64,000 bases of DNA. Origin: Escherichia phage fKMPT1. The notes beneath the pieces were generated by a model, which was given only the letters and a program-made list of their open reading frames with translations, was not told where the DNA came from and did not search any database. The position numbers were made by a program, and so were the translations under genes. Of the stretch, positions 64 through 60,430 are shown piece by piece (within the stretch, counting starts at the first letter, position 1; the number at the start of each line of letters is the position of its first letter). The stretch is taken from sequence record PP620640. One strand, written 5' to 3'.

Positions 64-363
64 ATGTATACCACGATGCAGGTTTCAAGTGGTAAACAAG
101 AGGTGTCTGTCAAAACAAAGTTACAACAGTTGGATAATTACACAAGTAGTAACTATTCAGCTATTCGTGATTTACAGTCTGACATTAGGCTTATCCAGTT
201 AGGGATGGAGAACCAGAAAGTCCAGTTAGAGAATGTTAAGGGTGAGAACGCAAAACTTACTAAAACCCTTGATAAATTCTCTGACAGCGTGAACAATCTG
301 GCTCAATCAGTATCAGCCCTCCAAGCTATTACTGAAAAGAACACAAAGAATACTGAAAAGTAA
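64..363 (+). CDS. hypothetical coiled-coil protein (C-terminal fragment of a longer gene possible)
   Basis: 99-aa ORF, heptad-like Q/L/K-rich sequence, followed by a hairpin terminator at 371-396. Confidence 0.5.
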   Translation: MYTTMQVSSGKQEVSVKTKLQQLDNYTSSNYSAIRDLQSDIRLIQLGMENQKVQLENVKGENAKLTKTLDKFSDSVNNLAQSVSALQAITEKNTKNTEK

Positions 364-4468: not shown

Positions 4469-5569
4469 TTACTCATAATCCCTAATAACTAGCCCAACAG
4501 GAAACTGTAAAGACCCCTTACGAGTCATCTTCTGGAACTGAACCGTTAAAGGTTTCCCGATAAACTCTTCAGGATGCTCAGCAAGATACTGTTTCTTCTC
4601 ATGAGTAGTCTTCCATGAGACATCTACAAAGACGTTAGGAAGCGTCTCTACAACGAACTTGCCATGACCACGTTTATCGGTCTTTACACCAGTTACTTTA
4701 AACTCTTCAGTGTGCATCTTCTTGTGCTTAATCAAGAAGTATGAACGGTGACAACACTCATAGAAGGAGTCTTCAGAAATTGAACGGTACATTGCACCTT
4801 CAAACTTAGCTTCAACCCACTTATCATGGGCTTCATCAAACTCTTCCCAAGAGTTAACACGACGAGATTTAACAGGGACAACTTTACAGCCATCTCTAAA
4901 GTCATTCAATGGTGAAGTCTCAATAATATCTCTACGCTCAGGCCACGTCTTAGTACTGTCACAGATATCATACCAGTAGAACTGGAGTAGATGTCGGTCT
5001 GGATTGTCAGCATTCTTAATCATAGACACAATGTCTTCTAAGTCCCAACCATGAGCATAAATCTCGCCATCAAAGTCTTTAACTTGCGGATGTAATTTAA
5101 GCAACAAAAGTAAATCTGGGATTAGTTCTGCTGGAACGTTGTAAACAGTATTCTCACGAGAATAAGCCGTGAAGCTAACTGAATCAGCATCTCTTGAAAT
5201 TCTACAACGAACACCATCAAGTTTTGGTTGAGCATCAGCAGGGAATATCAAATACTTTGCATGACTAACCTTTGCAGCATCATGCGCAAGCTGTACACCT
5301 ACCTTCTCAGTATTCTGTGCAGACTCTTTTGTGTAAGCATAACCTTTGCGGTCAACCTGCTTTTTATACTTAGCAGCAACTTCAAAGAGAGCTTGCTGTT
5401 CAGCGTTACGCTCATTCTTTTTACCGATGTTTTTAGGTTCTGCTGTATACTCTTCAAACATCATCTTGCCATTCTCTTTACCGTAGGTTGTAATAACTTT
5501 GTCGCCTACAGCAACACATGACCAGACGTTGAAGGAGCCATCTTTATTTTGTTTGTATAGAATTGTCAT
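4469..5569 (-). CDS. ATP-dependent DNA ligase
   Basis: 366 aa; adenylation motif I KLDGVR. Confidence 0.8.
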   Translation of the reverse strand: MTILYKQNKDGSFNVWSCVAVGDKVITTYGKENGKMMFEEYTAEPKNIGKKNERNAEQQALFEVAAKYKKQVDRKGYAYTKESAQNTEKVGVQLAHDAAKVSHAKYLIFPADAQPKLDGVRCRISRDADSVSFTAYSRENTVYNVPAELIPDLLLLLKLHPQVKDFDGEIYAHGWDLEDIVSMIKNADNPDRHLLQFYWYDICDSTKTWPERRDIIETSPLNDFRDGCKVVPVKSRRVNSWEEFDEAHDKWVEAKFEGAMYRSISEDSFYECCHRSYFLIKHKKMHTEEFKVTGVKTDKRGHGKFVVETLPNVFVDVSWKTTHEKKQYLAEHPEEFIGKPLTVQFQKMTRKGSLQFPVGLVIRDYE

Positions 5570-56769: not shown

Positions 56770-58185
56770 ATGAGCGAATTATTTAAACATGCGCACCTTC
56801 ATGCAGGTCGAACTGAAAATGGTGCTGTAAACCATACTTCATCAATGTCTGCTCTTGTAGACTTTTACAAAGCTGCTGGTTCAAGCCGTAGCAATGTAGA
56901 AATCTTACCAGACTTGTTCTACAAAGCTTTGCGTGAGGATGTTGATGTTGCAGTTCGTATTTTGCTTCACATGCGAGATGTACGAGAAGGTATGGGTGAG
57001 CGTAAAGCCTTCAGAACTGTTTTACTTCAAGCAATCGAAGATAAAGTTTTAGAGCCTACACAGGTTCTTCGTATTATGGATAAGATTGCAGAACTTGGTC
57101 GTTTTGATGACTTCAAAATCTTCGTAGGTACTCGTTTTGAGACAGATGCCTTTAAGCATTTAGAAGCAGCATTACTAGACCCTGAGACAGCAGGTTTAGC
57201 AGCTAAGTGGTTACCACGAGTAAAACCACGACACAAACAGTTTGTAAAACGTTTCTGTAAGTTTGCTAACTTGAGTGAGAGAGAGTATCGCACACTGTTA
57301 TCTGTACTGTCTGATACTGTTGAGCAAAAAATCTCTGCTAATGAGTTTGGTAAGATTGACTACAGCAAGATTCCTTCACTCGCTGCTGCACGTTACCAAA
57401 AACTCTTTAACCGTAAAGATGGTGAACGCTACAAAGCTTACATCGAGTCACTCTCAAAAGGTGAGGCTAAGATTAACGCTGGTGCTGTTTACCCATACGA
57501 TGTGATTAAGTCTATCAAGTATGGTAATGCAGATGTTGCTAATGAGCAGTGGAAAGCACTACCAAACTGGATGGCAGAAGGTGAAAACATTTTGTGTATG
57601 ACTGATGTTTCAAGCTCAATGTCTTGGGTGAATCTTGGTTCAATCACTGCTCTTGATATTGGTGTATCTCTTGCCTTGTATGTAGCAGAACGCAACACTG
57701 GTTGCTTTAAGAATGAGTTAATGGTTTACTCAACAAACCCTCACTTCATCGAACTGAGTGGTGATTTACGAAACCGTCATCGTCAGGTAATGCGTCACGT
57801 TGAATATGGTTCAACTAACTTACAAGCAGCTTTTGACCGTATTCTTGAGGTAGGTAAGAGAAACAACTTGACTCAGAAAGATATGCCAAGTAAGCTTATT
57901 ATCTTCTCTGATATGGAGTTTAATCAGGTTGACGGTGCAAATGGTCGTACAAACTTTGAAGCAATTCAGAGTAAGTACAAAAAAGCTGGATACGAAATGC
58001 CACAACTGGTATTCTGGTACTTAGCAAACCGTAATGGTACTTGCGAAGTATCTGTTAAGGATAACGGTGTAGCAATGGTATCAGGGTTCTCTCCAGCCAC
58101 TTTAAAAGCTCTGCTTGGTGGTGAGAAGTTTGACCCAATCAGCGTAATGCTCAAAGCAGTAATGATTGACCGTTACATCTGGTAA
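56770..58185 (+). CDS. vWA-domain protein with helical N-terminal domain (TROVE/Ro60-like or DUF2828-like candidate)
   Basis: 471 aa; helical N-terminus, then MIDAS-like DVSSSM and SDMEF vWA features. Confidence 0.5.
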   Translation: MSELFKHAHLHAGRTENGAVNHTSSMSALVDFYKAAGSSRSNVEILPDLFYKALREDVDVAVRILLHMRDVREGMGERKAFRTVLLQAIEDKVLEPTQVLRIMDKIAELGRFDDFKIFVGTRFETDAFKHLEAALLDPETAGLAAKWLPRVKPRHKQFVKRFCKFANLSEREYRTLLSVLSDTVEQKISANEFGKIDYSKIPSLAAARYQKLFNRKDGERYKAYIESLSKGEAKINAGAVYPYDVIKSIKYGNADVANEQWKALPNWMAEGENILCMTDVSSSMSWVNLGSITALDIGVSLALYVAERNTGCFKNELMVYSTNPHFIELSGDLRNRHRQVMRHVEYGSTNLQAAFDRILEVGKRNNLTQKDMPSKLIIFSDMEFNQVDGANGRTNFEAIQSKYKKAGYEMPQLVFWYLANRNGTCEVSVKDNGVAMVSGFSPATLKALLGGEKFDPISVMLKAVMIDRYIW

Positions 58186-58203: not shown

Positions 58204-58232
58204 TTGACAATGTGTTTAATACCCTTTAATAT
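58204..58232 (+). promoter_or_regulatory. sigma70-like promoter upstream of tRNA array
   Basis: TTGACA - 17 nt - TAATAT. Confidence 0.5.
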
Positions 58233-58350
58233 GTTCTACATAGAAACGAAATGAGAGCTTTTCTAAGATACTGAAAAATATTTTAAAAAAGTTCTTGACA
58301 ACCACTAAAAAATAATGTTAAAGTGGTTACATAGAGTTTGAAAAGTTTAT

Positions 58351-58512: not shown

Positions 58513-58603
58513 GTTTTGACAGAAGACCAATTGCAGCAAACTTAATCTTATTCATCTGACACGAAATCGGACAAAGAAGAGATTTGGTCTGGTCATTAAG
58601 AAT

Positions 58604-58680: not shown

Positions 58681-58763
58681 AATTTACAGAAGACCGTTTA
58701 CAGCAATATTTATTAAATTTTTAGCGGAAAAATTGAAAGATACGGTCTGGTAATACTAAACAT

Positions 58764-59003: not shown

Positions 59004-59081
59004 GGTTATGTAGTTTAATCTGGTTAAAATACTCCCCTGTCACGGGAGATGATGAGGGTTCGAATCCCTTCGTAACCGCCA
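59004..59081 (+). tRNA. tRNA-Asp (anticodon GTC)
   Basis: anticodon arm ctccc-CTGTCAC-gggag. Confidence 0.7.
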
Positions 59082-59537
59082 AATTATAATAAGTATTTCA
59101 AAATGATGTTTTGAGAGGGCTATTTAGCCCCTCCCTTAAAGAGTTCTTACGAGTATTCTTTAAAGGAGCAGAAGACCAAATTCAGCAAGAACGTATGAAA
59201 TTTCAAGCCAATTTAATTTTGAAAATTTAAAACTTGGTCTGGCTCAACAAATTTACAGAAGACCGTTTACAGCAAAACTTAAACAATCTATTTCTCGGTA
59301 AAGAAAAGGCGAAGGTTCGATTCCTTCACTCGGCAGATGTCGAGTTGGTGTAATGGTAGCACTTAAGATGATAAACAACGGTCTGGTAATTGTCTTTGCA
59401 GTAGCTTATGTGGCTAATTATGTCGTCCCATGAGTGCCGATGAATTTCCTTAGCATGATTCTAGATTAGCTTAATAGGAAATGACTCTACAGACCCTTTA
59501 GCAAGGTCTGCGTAGGTTACTGCAAAGATAATTTAAT

Positions 59538-59613
59538 GGAAGTGTAGCAGAATGGTGATGCGGCAGACTTTTAATCTGACAGGCGATGGGTTCGAATCCC
59601 TCCACTTCTACCA
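59538..59613 (+). tRNA. tRNA-Lys (anticodon TTT)
   Basis: cloverleaf; weak T-stem; paralogous to 60859-60934. Confidence 0.55.
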
Positions 59614-59786: not shown

Positions 59787-59815
59787 TTGACATTGAGATG
59801 TGACTACTTTATAGT
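59787..59815 (+). promoter_or_regulatory. sigma70-like promoter inside tRNA region
   Basis: TTGACA - 17 nt - TATAGT. Confidence 0.55.
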
Positions 59816-60109
59816 AACTGAAAATGATTCAGCATATGTATAATTCAAACACCAATACATGAGCGTTAGACGTAACACAATGTGGGGAAATTTGTTGTAC
59901 ATATTCTGAATAGTTTTCGTTGCGTAGCGTCTATTTTGCAAAGTTAAAATAAATGCAAACGACAATGTTTTTCTGGCAGTAGCTTGATAGGCTAAACACC
60001 AGTGAGGTCTTCCAACCCCTCATCAAAGAATTTGGCGTACTAGCCCACGGTATGATTAATAAGGTGGGCATCTTTAAGGGCTTTCTAAGAGAGTCTTTAA
60101 AGATAATTA

Positions 60110-60191
60110 CGGGGCGTATCTCAGCTGTCTTCTAAACAGCCGTTAACCGAGTAAGTGGAGTATGCGGGTTCGAGTCCTGCCGCCTCGACCA
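60110..60191 (+). tRNA. tRNA-like gene, non-canonical (no D-arm; anticodon-like hairpin with TCT)
   Basis: perfect acceptor and T-arm with CCA; internal hairpin gctgt-CTTCTAA-acagc; only 7 nt where D-arm should be. Confidence 0.4.
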
Positions 60192-60334: not shown

Positions 60335-60417
60335 GTGGGACGATGTTAAGACTCTAAGGCATGAGCAACGGCTTCCAACACCGTTTCAAAGGGGTTCAAA
60401 TCCTCCGTCCCATGCCA
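60335..60417 (+). tRNA. tRNA-like gene, isotype undetermined (9-nt loop hairpin containing CCA/TCC)
   Basis: acceptor/T-arm/CCA canonical; internal hairpin aacgg-CTTCCAACA-ccgtt; D region irregular. Confidence 0.4.
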
Positions 60418-60430
60418 AAGTCTTATTAGG

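What the first reader, a model, noticed from the sequence alone, without database searches (positions are those of the whole stretch)
59281..59375. Apparent tRNA 3'-half followed by a tRNA 5'-half (permuted or fragmented tRNA)
The order is: a T-arm-like element (gaaggttcgattccttc) with a 3' acceptor-like strand (actcggc), then 6 nt later a 5' acceptor strand (gtcgagt, complementary with one wobble) and a D-arm-like gtcgagttggtgtaatggtagcac. The halves are in reversed order relative to a normal tRNA; this could be a permuted gene or a recombination remnant.
Basis: seen in the sequence. Interest (0 to 1): 0.35.

Follow-up and report, generated by a model that had tools for sequence, protein, structure and literature searches.

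The report
Phage Y RNA that mimics tRNA
The "reversed tRNA halves" are the tRNA-like core of a small noncoding Y RNA (YrlA type) that Felix O1-like phages encode, with three simpler sister hairpins, just downstream of their Ro60-like protein gene; this is a known kind of RNA, but it is unannotated in these phages and standard tools miss it.

Summary
At 59311-59362 a T arm, a 7-bp acceptor-like stem closed by a 4-nt loop, and a D arm lie in "permuted" order. It is not a broken or permuted tRNA gene. It is the tRNA-like domain of a ~135-nt RNA (59253-59389) with YrlA architecture: closing stem, V hairpin, T arm, closed acceptor stem, D arm.

A covariance model built only from RNAs of unrelated phages matches it end to end (69.8 bits, E~1e-15). 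Its helices covary across the family and within the Ounavirinae.

Three shorter hairpins (58517-58596, 58684-58755, 59166-59249) share its closing stem and an ACAGCAA motif. All four lie downstream, on the same strand, of ORF 56770-58185 (DUF2828/DUF7788). The predicted fold of that protein matches Ro60/TROVE structures over its full length.

In 75 metagenomic viral loci carrying this gene, every matching RNA lies on the gene's strand, almost all within about 1 kb of it.

The canonical YrlA 5' motif and the Rfam YrlA threshold are not met, so this is a divergent subfamily. Expression, protein binding and function are inferred, not shown.

Verdict: new member of a known kind, moderate interest.

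The parts
56770..58185 (+). Gene for a Ro60-like protein (471 aa; helical-repeat ring plus vWA domain with a DxSxS MIDAS motif), the presumed protein partner of the RNAs
   Evidence: Pfam DUF7788 (1.3e-43) and DUF2828 (5e-29). PHROG 850 'RNA-binding protein', 3.8e-183. AlphaFold model pLDDT 83, pTM 0.84. Foldseek best hits, all full length: 9kop TROVE domain, 2i91 Xenopus Ro60, 2nvo Deinococcus Rsr, 9l5y Thermus phage Ro60, E 1e-8 to 7e-7. D279/S281/S283 are invariant in 34 homologues. Mycobacteriophage homologues are annotated 'Ro-like RNA binding protein'.
58204..58324 (+). Two sigma-70-like promoters (58204-58232 and 58295-58324) that would drive the tRNA and Y-RNA array. This role is inferred.
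   Evidence: Consensus scan gives 10 of 12 matches for each, and no terminator-like site on the + strand before the next promoter at 59787. A consensus match only.
58517..58596 (+). Module M1: short Y-RNA-like hairpin (YrlB-like) between tRNA-Glu and tRNA-Met. Closing stem AGACCAA/UUGGUCU, CAGCAA motif at 58534.
   Evidence: Repeat families D6, D7 and D17; fold. Model R2, built from 19 hairpins of other phages, matches 58521-58594 at 27.7 bits, E 5.5e-4. This is the second-best hit in the whole window.
58684..58755 (+). Module M2: short Y-RNA-like hairpin between tRNA-Met and tRNA-Asn. Closing stem AGACCGU/ACGGUCU, ACAGCAA at 58700-58706. Its 5' 34 nt are 94% identical to M4.
   Evidence: R2 matches 58688-58752 at 36.6 bits, E 3.4e-6, the best hit in the window. 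R1 also matches its stem and motif at 25.7 bits.
59166..59249 (+). Module M3: short Y-RNA-like hairpin directly 5' of M4. Closing stem AGACCAA/UUGGUCU, CAGCAA at 59183.
   Evidence: R2 matches 59170-59244 at 18.9 bits, E 0.087, the third-best hit in the window. This is the weakest of the four modules.
59253..59389 (+). Module M4: the whole YrlA-type Y RNA that contains the finding. Outer 4-bp stem 59253-59256 with 59386-59389, then an AGA/G internal loop.
   Evidence: R1 matches 59259-59386 at 69.8 bits, E~1e-15, over the full model. The MFE fold shows all elements (-33.4 kcal/mol, z -2.0). All 9 distinct Ounavirinae sequences keep every pair.
59260..59267 (+). 5' arm of the closing stem (AGACCGUU). 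It pairs with 59377-59384 (AACGGUCU) and is followed by an unpaired G at 59385.
   Evidence: Helix 1 is 98% paired in 47 distinct sequences, and all 7 pairs show double changes. The paralogues covary: CCAA/UUGG in M1 and M3, CCGU/ACGG in M2 and M4.
59377..59384 (+). 3' arm of the closing stem (AACGGUCU)
   Evidence: As for the 5' arm.
59269..59275 (+). ACAGCAA motif, single-stranded, just 3' of the 5' arm. It is the candidate recognition element for the Ro60-like protein (inferred).
   Evidence: CAGCA is invariant in both seed alignments. The motif is present in all four window modules and in RNAs next to DUF2828 genes in phages of Mycobacterium, Klebsiella, Listeria, Campylobacter, Staphylococcus and Aeromonas.
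59278..59282 (+). Connector helix, 5' strand (CUUAA). It pairs with 59363-59367 (UUAAG) and occupies the place of the tRNA anticodon stem.
   Evidence: MFE fold. It is needed for the cloverleaf that ARAGORN called in the re-joined construct.
59287..59309 (+). V hairpin, in the position of the tRNA variable arm. It varies among relatives.
   Evidence: Fold. Its length and sequence differ among the Felixounavirus, Suspvirus and Mooglevirus sequences.
59311..59327 (+). T arm, GAAGG-UUCGAUU-CCUUC, with U54, U55, C56 and A58
   Evidence: Helix 2 is 98.7% paired, with 4 of 5 pairs showing double changes across the family.
59328..59345 (+). Acceptor-like stem-loop (AS): ACUCGGC, loop AGAU, GUCGAGU. 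7 bp, closed by the loop.
   Evidence: Three compensated versions exist within the Ounavirinae: ACUCGGC/GUCGAGU, ACACGUU/GGCGUGU and ACCCUUC/GAAGGGU. Helix 3 has all 7 pairs with double changes across the family.
59346..59362 (+). U8 and G9, then the D arm GUGU-AAUGGUA-GCAC, with A14, G18, G19 and A21
   Evidence: Helix 4 has 3 of 4 pairs with double changes.
59363..59367 (+). Connector helix, 3' strand (UUAAG)

Best explanation
The finding is the tRNA-like domain of a phage-encoded Y RNA of the YrlA type (59253-59389, + strand).

Shown here: the RNA has a closing stem followed by a single-stranded ACAGCAA motif, a connector helix in place of the anticodon stem, a V hairpin, a T arm, a 7-bp acceptor-like stem closed by a 4-nt loop, and a D arm. 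It is homologous to RNAs that sit next to DUF2828-type Ro60-like genes in many unrelated phages. Its helices are kept by compensatory change. Three simpler hairpins (M1-M3) share only the closing stem and the motif. The neighbouring ORF 56770-58185 has a Ro60 (TROVE ring plus vWA) fold.

Inferred:
1. The four RNAs are transcribed with the tRNA array from the promoters at about 58204 and 58295.
2. They are cut free by the tRNA-processing enzymes. M1 and M2 fit between tRNAs with gaps of only 3-8 nt.
3. The closing stem and ACAGCAA module binds the Ro60-like protein, as Y RNA stems bind Ro60.
4. D-loop G18/G19 pair with T-loop U55/C56, giving the domain an L-shaped tRNA-like body.
5. That body presents a tRNA mimic that recruits or distracts a tRNA-recognising factor. 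Candidates are an exoribonuclease as in Ro60/Y RNA/PNPase complexes, tRNA-modifying or processing enzymes, or a host defence nuclease.

Because the acceptor-like stem has 7 bp, RNase P could open it between 59338 and 59339.
For: - Architecture: read directly from the sequence and from the MFE fold.
- Homology: model R1, built without any Felix-like sequence, matches 59259-59386 at 69.8 bits, E~1e-15, over the full model. Members of the same RNA family in LeBron, Samty and Klebsiella phage FBKp34 are matched by Rfam YrlA RF02553 at 38-40 bits (E 1.6e-7 in a local search), right after the DUF2828 gene.
- Covariation: 95% of cells are paired, against 60% after shuffling and about 40% when the partner is slid. 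21 of 23 pairs show double changes. Within the Ounavirinae 100% are paired, and the acceptor-like stem has been rewritten twice.
- Linkage to the gene: 50 of 50 R1 hits and 51 of 51 R2 hits lie on the gene's strand, mostly within about 1 kb of the gene.
- Sister hairpins: the three best R2 hits in the 64-kb window are exactly M2, M1 and M3.
- Protein fold: Foldseek hits Ro60, Rsr and a phage Ro60 over the full length, E 1e-8 to 7e-7, TM 0.5-0.6. The MIDAS residues are invariant.
- Literature: the YrlA definition and its order V-T-AS-D, and RNase P cleavage with CCA addition for the 7-bp stem of M. smegmatis YrlA (PMC4201824). YrlA described as a circularly permuted tRNA-like RNA (10.1101/312249). 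Bas63, a Felixounavirus, has a Ro60-like gp130 directly upstream of its tRNAs, and the authors could only guess that Y RNAs exist there (10.1101/2024.10.10.617714).
Against: - There are no expression, end-mapping or binding data.
- Rfam's YrlA model gives no hit on the window even at E<=10.
- The canonical 5' motif GNCGAAN0-1G is absent, so Ro60 recognition would have to work through a different element.
- The partner protein is not a Pfam TROVE member. The link to Ro60 rests on a predicted fold with 11-15% identity.
- The Levitt pair cannot form as a standard pair: position 15 is A and position 48 is C or A.
- The MFE z-score is modest (-2.0).
- Alignments A3 and A4 were fitted to the model, which favours its structure.
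- Bas63 gp130 alone, from a plasmid or inside T7, counters the ppl defence. The RNAs are therefore not needed for that phenotype.
Confidence: 0.8

Rival explanations
1. A tRNA-like processing or stability element of the polycistronic tRNA transcript. It would be an RNase P/RNase Z 'punctuation' site or a nuclease-resistant cap that works without the Ro60-like protein. The ACAGCAA hairpins would then be processing or regulatory signals of tRNA arrays.
For: The modules are wedged between tRNAs. The acceptor-like stem has 7 bp and begins with N-CCA in 7 of about 19 relatives, like a tRNA end. A 114-nt 'tRNA-Asp' of Klebsiella phage FBKp34 carries a similar stem plus UUUACAGCA as an insert. gp130 works without the RNAs against ppl.
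Against: The same hairpins flank the DUF2828 gene in Listeria, Campylobacter and Staphylococcus phages and in many metagenomic phages, where no tRNA array adjoins them, and they are always on the gene's strand. The element shared by all modules is the stem and motif, not a tRNA-like part.
Confidence: 0.1
2. A genuine permuted tRNA gene. The transcript would be circularised or re-joined and then opened at the acceptor stem to give a decoding tRNA, as in Cyanidioschyzon merolae.
For: The halves are in permuted order. The re-joined construct is called a tRNA by ARAGORN once the V region is trimmed. Trp is missing from the 25 tRNAs called in the window.
Against: There is no anticodon loop: the connector runs into a closing stem with an asymmetric internal loop. 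With the native V region ARAGORN finds nothing at its default threshold. No bulge-helix-bulge motif is seen, and bacteria are not known to have the splicing endonuclease needed (and general knowledge). Family members vary freely in the region where an anticodon would lie.
Confidence: 0.03
3. A recombination remnant: the 3' half of one dead tRNA next to the 5' half of another.
For: It lies in a tRNA cluster whose content varies between relatives. Indels, an HNH endonuclease gene and two tRNA-Arg alleles are seen.
Against: The two 'halves' pair perfectly with each other, and this pairing is kept by compensatory changes in three versions. The whole 128-nt unit is homologous to RNAs in distant phages. 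No matching other halves exist nearby.
Confidence: 0.02
4. The acceptor piece and start of the coding piece of a two-piece (permuted) tmRNA.
For: The order 'T arm, 3' acceptor strand, short linker, 5' acceptor strand' is the order found in permuted ssrA genes. A tmRNA-like tag template does exist about 600 nt downstream.
Against: ARAGORN, which detects permuted tmRNAs, finds none. Rfam tmRNA_permuted gives no hit on 59082-59537 at E<=10. Positions 3:70 are C-G, not G.U, no CCA is encoded, a true D stem is present, and no tag reading frame follows within the RNA.
Confidence: 0.01

Closest known systems
YrlA (Y RNA-like A) of Salmonella Typhimurium, Mycobacterium smegmatis and more than 250 bacteria and phages (Rfam RF02553; Chen et al. 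2014, PMC4201824; structure in Wang et al. 2018, 10.1101/312249)
   Same: Encoded near a Ro60-type gene on the same strand. A long closing stem is made by the 5' and 3' ends. The element order is V, T arm, closed acceptor-like stem-loop, D arm. The tRNA-invariant T-loop and D-loop bases are present. It comes with shorter sister RNAs (YrlB). It has a 7-bp acceptor-like stem, as in the M. smegmatis RNA that RNase P cleaves.
   Different: No GNCGAAN0-1G motif; instead ACAGCAA follows the 5' arm. No Rfam hit. A long V hairpin. The partner protein is of the DUF2828/DUF7788 type, not Pfam TROVE. There are four RNAs, interleaved with tRNA genes 0.3-1.2 kb downstream of the gene.
YrlA-like RNAs next to the 'Ro-like RNA binding protein' of cluster L mycobacteriophages (LeBron, Samty) and of Klebsiella phage FBKp34
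   Same: Same covariance model (R1 scores 93-105 bits for them, 69.8 for the window). Same ACAGCAA motif, same WG...CWG closing stem, same partner protein family (31-52% identity), and the same mix of one tRNA-like RNA with short hairpins.
   Different: In those phages the RNAs lie directly after the gene, and Rfam YrlA still detects them weakly (38-40 bits). The window's RNA has diverged beyond that.
Yrl1/Yrl2 of Thermus phage phiLo with phiRo60 (PMC12135203)
   Same: Phage-encoded Ro60 homologue with adjacent small hairpin RNAs that bind it. The solved protein structures (9kop, 9l5y) are among the best fold matches of the window protein.
   Different: The phiLo RNAs carry the CGAA motif, lie upstream of the gene, and are not described as tRNA-like.
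Circularly permuted tRNA genes of Cyanidioschyzon merolae and some archaea
   Same: The 3' half precedes the 5' half, the acceptor stem is initially closed by a loop, and the ends pair with each other.
   Different: Those transcripts contain an anticodon loop after processing and need the archaeal/eukaryotic splicing endonuclease. Here no anticodon loop exists.
Two-piece tmRNA from permuted ssrA genes
   Same: Permuted order of the tRNA-like domain.
   Different: No G3.U70, no encoded CCA, no tag template within the RNA, no ARAGORN or Rfam call.

Membership tests
YrlA-type Y RNA (Chen et al. 2014; Rfam RF02553) | Encoded within about 4 kb of a Ro60 orthologue, on the same strand | tested here: met
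   The RNA starts at 59253 and the gene ends at 58185, on the same strand. The Ro60 fold of the gene product is supported. The protein is DUF2828/DUF7788 by Pfam, not TROVE.
YrlA-type Y RNA (Chen et al. 2014; Rfam RF02553) | Conserved T and D stem-loops with a stem-loop between them in the place of the acceptor stem, and a V region before T (order V-T-AS-D) | tested here: met
   Covariation.
YrlA-type Y RNA (Chen et al. 2014; Rfam RF02553) | GNCGAAN0-1G motif near the 5' end (the proposed Ro60 contact) | tested here: not met
   There is no CGAA in 59253-59290. The conserved element is (A)CAGCAA.
YrlA-type Y RNA (Chen et al. 2014; Rfam RF02553) | Score at or above the Rfam gathering threshold (69 bits) | tested here: not met
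   No RF02553 hit on 59082-59537 at E<=10. Relatives in other phages reach 38-40 bits.
YrlA-type Y RNA (Chen et al. 2014; Rfam RF02553) | tRNA tertiary-interaction bases: U8-A14, G18-U55, G19-C56, U54-A58, and the Levitt pair 15-48 | tested here: inconclusive
   U8, A14, G18, G19, A21, U54, U55, C56 and A58 are present. Position 15 is A and position 48 is C (A in some relatives), so no standard Levitt pair can form.
YrlA-type Y RNA (Chen et al. 2014; Rfam RF02553) | Bound by Ro60/Rsr in vivo, and modified by TruB and DusA | not testable with these tools
   Needs immunoprecipitation and modification mapping.
DUF2828-associated ACAGCAA RNAs (family defined here by models R1 and R2) | Closing stem W-G...C-W plus an unpaired G, with (A)CAGCAA 1-4 nt after the 5' arm, next to a DUF2828 gene on its strand | tested here: met
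   M4 69.8 bits; M2 36.6, M1 27.7 and M3 18.9 bits. Strand and position statistics.
Transfer RNA | Contiguous cloverleaf with an anticodon loop | tested here: not met
   ARAGORN and Rfam tRNA make no call. There is no anticodon loop.
Circularly permuted tRNA gene | After re-joining the ends the molecule is a complete tRNA with an anticodon loop, and a processing motif (bulge-helix-bulge) lies at the junction | tested here: not met
   Only an artificial loop plus a trimmed V region gives an ARAGORN call. The native junction is a long stem with an ACAGCAA internal loop.
Two-piece tmRNA (Rfam RF04321; ARAGORN permuted tmRNA) | G3.U70 acceptor stem ending in ACCA, a tag reading frame in the coding piece, and a model score | tested here: not met
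Ro60/TROVE protein (for ORF 56770-58185) | HEAT-like helical ring plus a C-terminal vWA domain with a MIDAS motif | tested here: met
   Predicted structure and Foldseek; DxSxS is invariant. This rests on a prediction, and sequence searches of the PDB find nothing.
Ro60/TROVE protein (for ORF 56770-58185) | Match to Pfam TROVE (PF05731) | tested here: not met
   Only DUF2828 and DUF7788 are matched.

The most novel reading that the evidence does not exclude
In this phage subfamily the closed acceptor stem may be a processing substrate. RNase P would cut between 59338 and 59339, the upstream piece would be trimmed to A73 and receive CCA, and the result would be a two-piece, base-paired tRNA mimic with a free acceptor end that is held on the Ro60-like protein.

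Such a particle could be charged, bind EF-Tu, or act as bait for tRNA-targeting defence nucleases. That would tie the RNAs to the anti-defence role reported for Bas63 gp130.

Support:
- The stem is 7 bp in nearly all members.
- In 7 of about 19 distinct members the loop begins with N-CCA, exactly like an encoded tRNA 3' end. About 0.3 would be expected by chance.
- M. smegmatis YrlA is processed this way.

The window's own loop is AGAU, so here CCA would have to be added by the host enzyme.
Probability: 0.2. Interest if true: 0.7.

Novelty: new member of a known kind. Interest (0 to 1): 0.42.

Why it matters
Felix O1-like phages are widely used for typing and therapy. Their Ro60-like protein (Bas63 gp130) was recently shown to counter a bacterial defence system, and the authors could only guess that some annotated tRNAs might be its Y RNAs.

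This work places four concrete, unannotated candidate partner RNAs at exact coordinates. It gives a signature (WG-stem, ACAGCAA, stem-CWG-G) and two covariance models that find such RNAs next to DUF2828-type Ro60-like genes in a wide range of phages where Rfam fails or falls below its threshold. It also raises a testable idea: many of these tRNA mimics may be opened to expose a CCA end.

It also warns annotators that T-arm and D-arm fragments in phage tRNA clusters need not be pseudogenes.

Tried and rejected
- **ARAGORN and Rfam (gathering and E<=10)** on the region found no tRNA, tmRNA or YrlA call.
- **Sequence search of the PDB** with the neighbouring protein found nothing. Only the predicted fold revealed Ro60.
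- **A crude scan for 'CAGCAA plus any 6-8 bp stem'** was too noisy to use as evidence, so I replaced it with covariance models.
- **Re-joining the halves.** With the native V region ARAGORN finds nothing at its default threshold. It calls a tRNA only when the V region is cut to 5 nt (default threshold) or to the V hairpin alone (relaxed threshold). The domain is therefore cloverleaf-compatible but not a hidden tRNA.
- **Supplementary phage list of Chen et al. 2014** is not held. The Annual Review on bacterial Ro60 and, by the PMC id I recalled for it, the 2016 RNA-repair paper are not held either. I could not check whether the cluster L mycobacteriophage RNAs or the ACAGCAA motif have been described.
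- **A literature search for Felixounavirus transcriptomes** found nothing useful.
- **A guessed accession for Bas63** (MZ501111) turned out to be Bas51. The identity of the window ORF with Bas63 gp130 rests on the preprint's description (Felixounavirus, gene directly upstream of the tRNAs), not on an alignment.
- **Genes flanking the array** carry no RNA-repair functions that would sharpen the mechanism.

Full report
**Where the window comes from.** The window is a Felix O1-like phage. The 456-nt stretch around the finding is 100% identical to Salmonella phage fBSPA4 and is conserved in 251 phage records, nearly all without annotation there. The finding lies in a gap between tRNA-Asp (59004-59081) and tRNA-Lys (59538-59613), inside an array of 25 tRNA genes.

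**Check of the observation.**
- T arm GAAGG-UUCGAUU-CCUUC at 59311-59327.
- ACUCGGC at 59328-59334.
- A 4-nt loop AGAU.
- GUCGAGU at 59339-59345, which pairs with ACUCGGC over 7 bp with one G.U.
- U8 and G9, then a D arm GUGU-AAUGGUA-GCAC at 59348-59362.

ARAGORN calls nothing here. Rfam's tRNA model sees only the T arm, at 14.9 bits.

**What surrounds it.** A repeat search showed four copies of a 5' element CAGAAGACC(N3-4)(A)CAGCAA. Each is matched 50-110 nt downstream by (N3)GGUCUGG. These define four hairpin modules:
- M1, 58517-58596
- M2, 58684-58755
- M3, 59166-59249
- M4, 59253-59389

Their closing stems covary between paralogues: CCAA/UUGG in M1 and M3, CCGU/ACGG in M2 and M4.

Only M4 has a large insert, and the insert is the finding. 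The MFE fold of M4 gives, from the outside in:
- an outer 4-bp stem and an AGA/G internal loop;
- the 8-bp closing stem;
- a connector helix (59278-59282 with 59363-59367);
- four elements in the order V hairpin, T arm, closed acceptor-like stem-loop, D arm.

That order and topology are the published definition of YrlA, the tRNA-mimicking Y RNA found next to bacterial Ro60 genes (PMC4201824). [quoted passage not shown]

**The neighbouring gene.** ORF 56770-58185 lies on the same strand and ends 1.07 kb upstream of M4.
- It matches Pfam DUF2828 and DUF7788 and PHROG 850, 'RNA-binding protein'.
- A sequence search of the PDB finds nothing.
- An AlphaFold model built on 34 homologues (pLDDT 83, pTM 0.84) matches Ro60 structures over its full length. 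These are the phiLo TROVE domain 9kop, Xenopus Ro60 2i91, Deinococcus Rsr 2nvo and phage phiLo Ro60 9l5y, with E 1e-8 to 7e-7 and TM 0.5-0.6.
- The DxSxS MIDAS residues are invariant.
- Homologues occur in 709 phage records. Those of cluster L mycobacteriophages are annotated 'Ro-like RNA binding protein', yet they too are DUF2828/DUF7788 by Pfam.
[quoted passage not shown] Its authors only speculated that some tRNA genes might be Y RNAs.

**Homology of the RNA.** Rfam's YrlA model does not hit the window. It does hit, below threshold, right after the DUF2828 gene in LeBron, Samty and Klebsiella phage FBKp34 (38-40 bits; E 1.6e-7 in a local search). Reading those regions showed the same grammar as in the window: stem, then (A)CAGCAA, then a plain loop or a V-T-AS-D domain, then stem.

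I fetched 80 metagenomic viral loci that carry the gene and aligned 11 tRNA-like examples, none of them Felix-like. I wrote in the four helices and built model R1.

R1 matches the window at 59259-59386 over the whole model: 69.8 bits, E~1e-15. These E-values are rough. The runners-up are tRNA-tRNA junctions at 26.6 bits or less, which are a known class of false positive, and the stem and motif of M2.

Over 86 sources all 50 hits are on the gene's strand. On that alignment:
- 95% of cells pair, against 60% after shuffling and about 40% with slid partners;
- 21 of 23 pairs show changes on both sides;
- all four helices are supported.

The alignment is fitted to the model, which favours it.

Within the Ounavirinae the T arm, D arm and closing stem are invariant, while the acceptor-like stem exists in three fully compensated versions: ACUCGGC/GUCGAGU, ACACGUU/GGCGUGU and ACCCUUC/GAAGGGU. 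This rules out chance and decay.

**The short hairpins.** A second model (R2) was built from 19 short hairpins of other phages. Its three best hits in the whole 64-kb window, on both strands, are M2 (36.6 bits, E 3e-6), M1 (27.7 bits, 5.5e-4) and M3 (18.9 bits, 0.087).

In 75 metagenomic loci all 51 R2 hits lie on the gene's strand. Nearly all sit within a few hundred nucleotides upstream or downstream of the gene, and 40 loci have at least one.

The same hairpins flank the gene in Listeria, Campylobacter, Staphylococcus and Aeromonas phages. The stem-plus-ACAGCAA module is therefore the element that travels with the protein, which is why I take it to be the protein-binding module. That step is inference.

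**How it most likely works.**

Shown: the architecture, the homology, the covariation, the linkage to a Ro60-fold gene, and the presence of the bases needed for the D-loop/T-loop interaction (U8, A14, G18, G19, U54, U55, C56, A58).

Inferred:
- Co-transcription with the tRNAs from the promoters at 58204 and 58295.
- Release by tRNA-processing enzymes.
- Binding of the closing-stem module to the Ro60-like protein.
- Display of a tRNA-shaped body that recruits or distracts a tRNA-recognising factor, as Y RNAs tether Ro60 to PNPase in bacteria and in phage phiLo.

Against an obligatory role: gp130 alone suffices against ppl in T7.

[quoted passage not shown] In 7 of about 19 distinct family members the loop starts with N-CCA, like an encoded tRNA end (Mordin GCCA; LPCS28, L046, L087 and L082 ACCA). 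The window's loop is AGAU.

This makes a two-piece, CCA-ended mimic plausible for the subfamily but unproven. It is my 'novel case'.

**Rivals.**
- A decoding permuted tRNA is excluded by the lack of any anticodon loop. Re-joined halves are called a tRNA only with an artificial loop and a trimmed V region: 5 nt at ARAGORN's default threshold, or the V hairpin alone at a relaxed one.
- A recombination remnant is excluded by the covariation and the distant homologues.
- A two-piece tmRNA is excluded by C3-G70, no CCA, a true D stem and no model hit.
- A Ro60-independent processing or stability element cannot be excluded without binding data. I give it 0.1.

**Membership and novelty.** It works like a YrlA and shares its defining architecture and gene linkage. 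[quoted passage not shown]

It belongs to a phage subfamily that includes the mycobacteriophage RNAs. Y RNA-like RNAs have been reported for mycobacteriophages, but I could not check whether these particular ones, or the ACAGCAA signature, have been described.

I therefore file it as a new member of a known kind. The subfamily signature may deserve description in its own right.

Noticed in passing
window 59919-60110 (tag template 59955-59990; promoter 59787-59815): A tmRNA-like mRNA domain. AAAAUAAAU is followed by GCAAACGACAAUGUUUUUCUGGCAGUAGCUUGAUAG, which reads ANDNVFLAVA** (E. coli ssrA tag: ANDENYALAA**), and then by several hairpins. Rfam tmRNA gives only 15 bits (E 4.5e-4 in a local search) and ARAGORN calls nothing. 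The domain is conserved in Mordin, with a synonymous change in the tag frame and a covarying hairpin after the stop. Copies at 80% identity occur in 339 of 5426 E. coli genomes, mostly on plasmids and without annotation. In one lambdoid prophage the copy lies between the Q antiterminator and holin genes, with tag ANEEMYLAVA*. No 5' tRNA-like part is seen, and the tRNA-like part lies 3' of the tag. It could be an unrecognised tmRNA variant, a decoy or a leader peptide.
   Followed up: partly
window 60112-60191: A tRNA-Arg(UCU)-like gene without a D arm, with a 23-nt variable region, G3.U70, A73 and an encoded CCA. ARAGORN misses it, and Rfam tRNA gives 31.2 bits in a local search. Other Felixounaviruses (L011, L013, Mordin) have a normal tRNA-Arg(UCU) at the same place. 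L014 carries the D-arm-less allele with a compensated anticodon stem, so this allele appears to be under selection.
   Followed up: partly
window 60335-60418 (Mordin L001 about 4711-4793): A tRNA-like gene with an encoded CCA and a 9-nt anticodon-like loop: CUUCCAACA here, CCUCCAAAA in Mordin, where the stem is compensated (AACGG/CCGUU becomes GUAAG/CUUAC). Rfam tRNA-Sec gives only 21.8 bits and ARAGORN does not call it.
   Followed up: no
window 59388-59535: A 150-nt structured element between M4 and tRNA-Lys: a closing helix of about 24 bp with three inner hairpins, MFE -54.8 kcal/mol, z -6.5. The closing helix is kept with a compensatory C-G to U-A change in Shigella phage Z31, whose interior is replaced by other sequence. 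Function unknown.
   Followed up: partly
L002 6003-6116 (Klebsiella phage vB_KpM_FBKp34): The 114-nt gene annotated 'tRNA-Asp' is a tRNA with an insert between the D arm and the anticodon stem. The insert contains a small hairpin (cuucuuagagaag) followed by UUUACAGCA, the same motif as the Y-RNA-like modules just upstream. It may be a fusion of a tRNA with the protein-binding module.
   Followed up: no
L001 4424-4548 (Citrobacter phage Mordin): A 125-nt tRNA-like element with acceptor GGUCAAG/CUUGACU, a T arm and an encoded CCA, but a long internal insert. It is not annotated and has no counterpart in the window.
   Followed up: no
window 59822-59915: An insertion of about 95 nt, directly after the strong promoter at 59787-59815, is present in the window and in L012 but absent from L011, L013, L014 and Mordin. 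In those, the tmRNA-like leader starts right after the -10 box.
   Followed up: no
L008 5808-7019 (Listeria phage LMTA-34): An RtcB RNA ligase gene lies 1.3 kb downstream of the DUF2828 gene and its two ACAGCAA hairpins. This echoes the bacterial rsr-yrlBA-rtcBA operon. No such gene is near the Ro60-like gene in the window.
   Followed up: no
window 128-201: A weak match to the short-hairpin model R2 (17.3 bits, E 0.21), with a UUACA-CAA variant of the motif and a UGGAUAA/UUAUCCA stem, far from the Ro60-like gene. It is probably chance.
   Followed up: no
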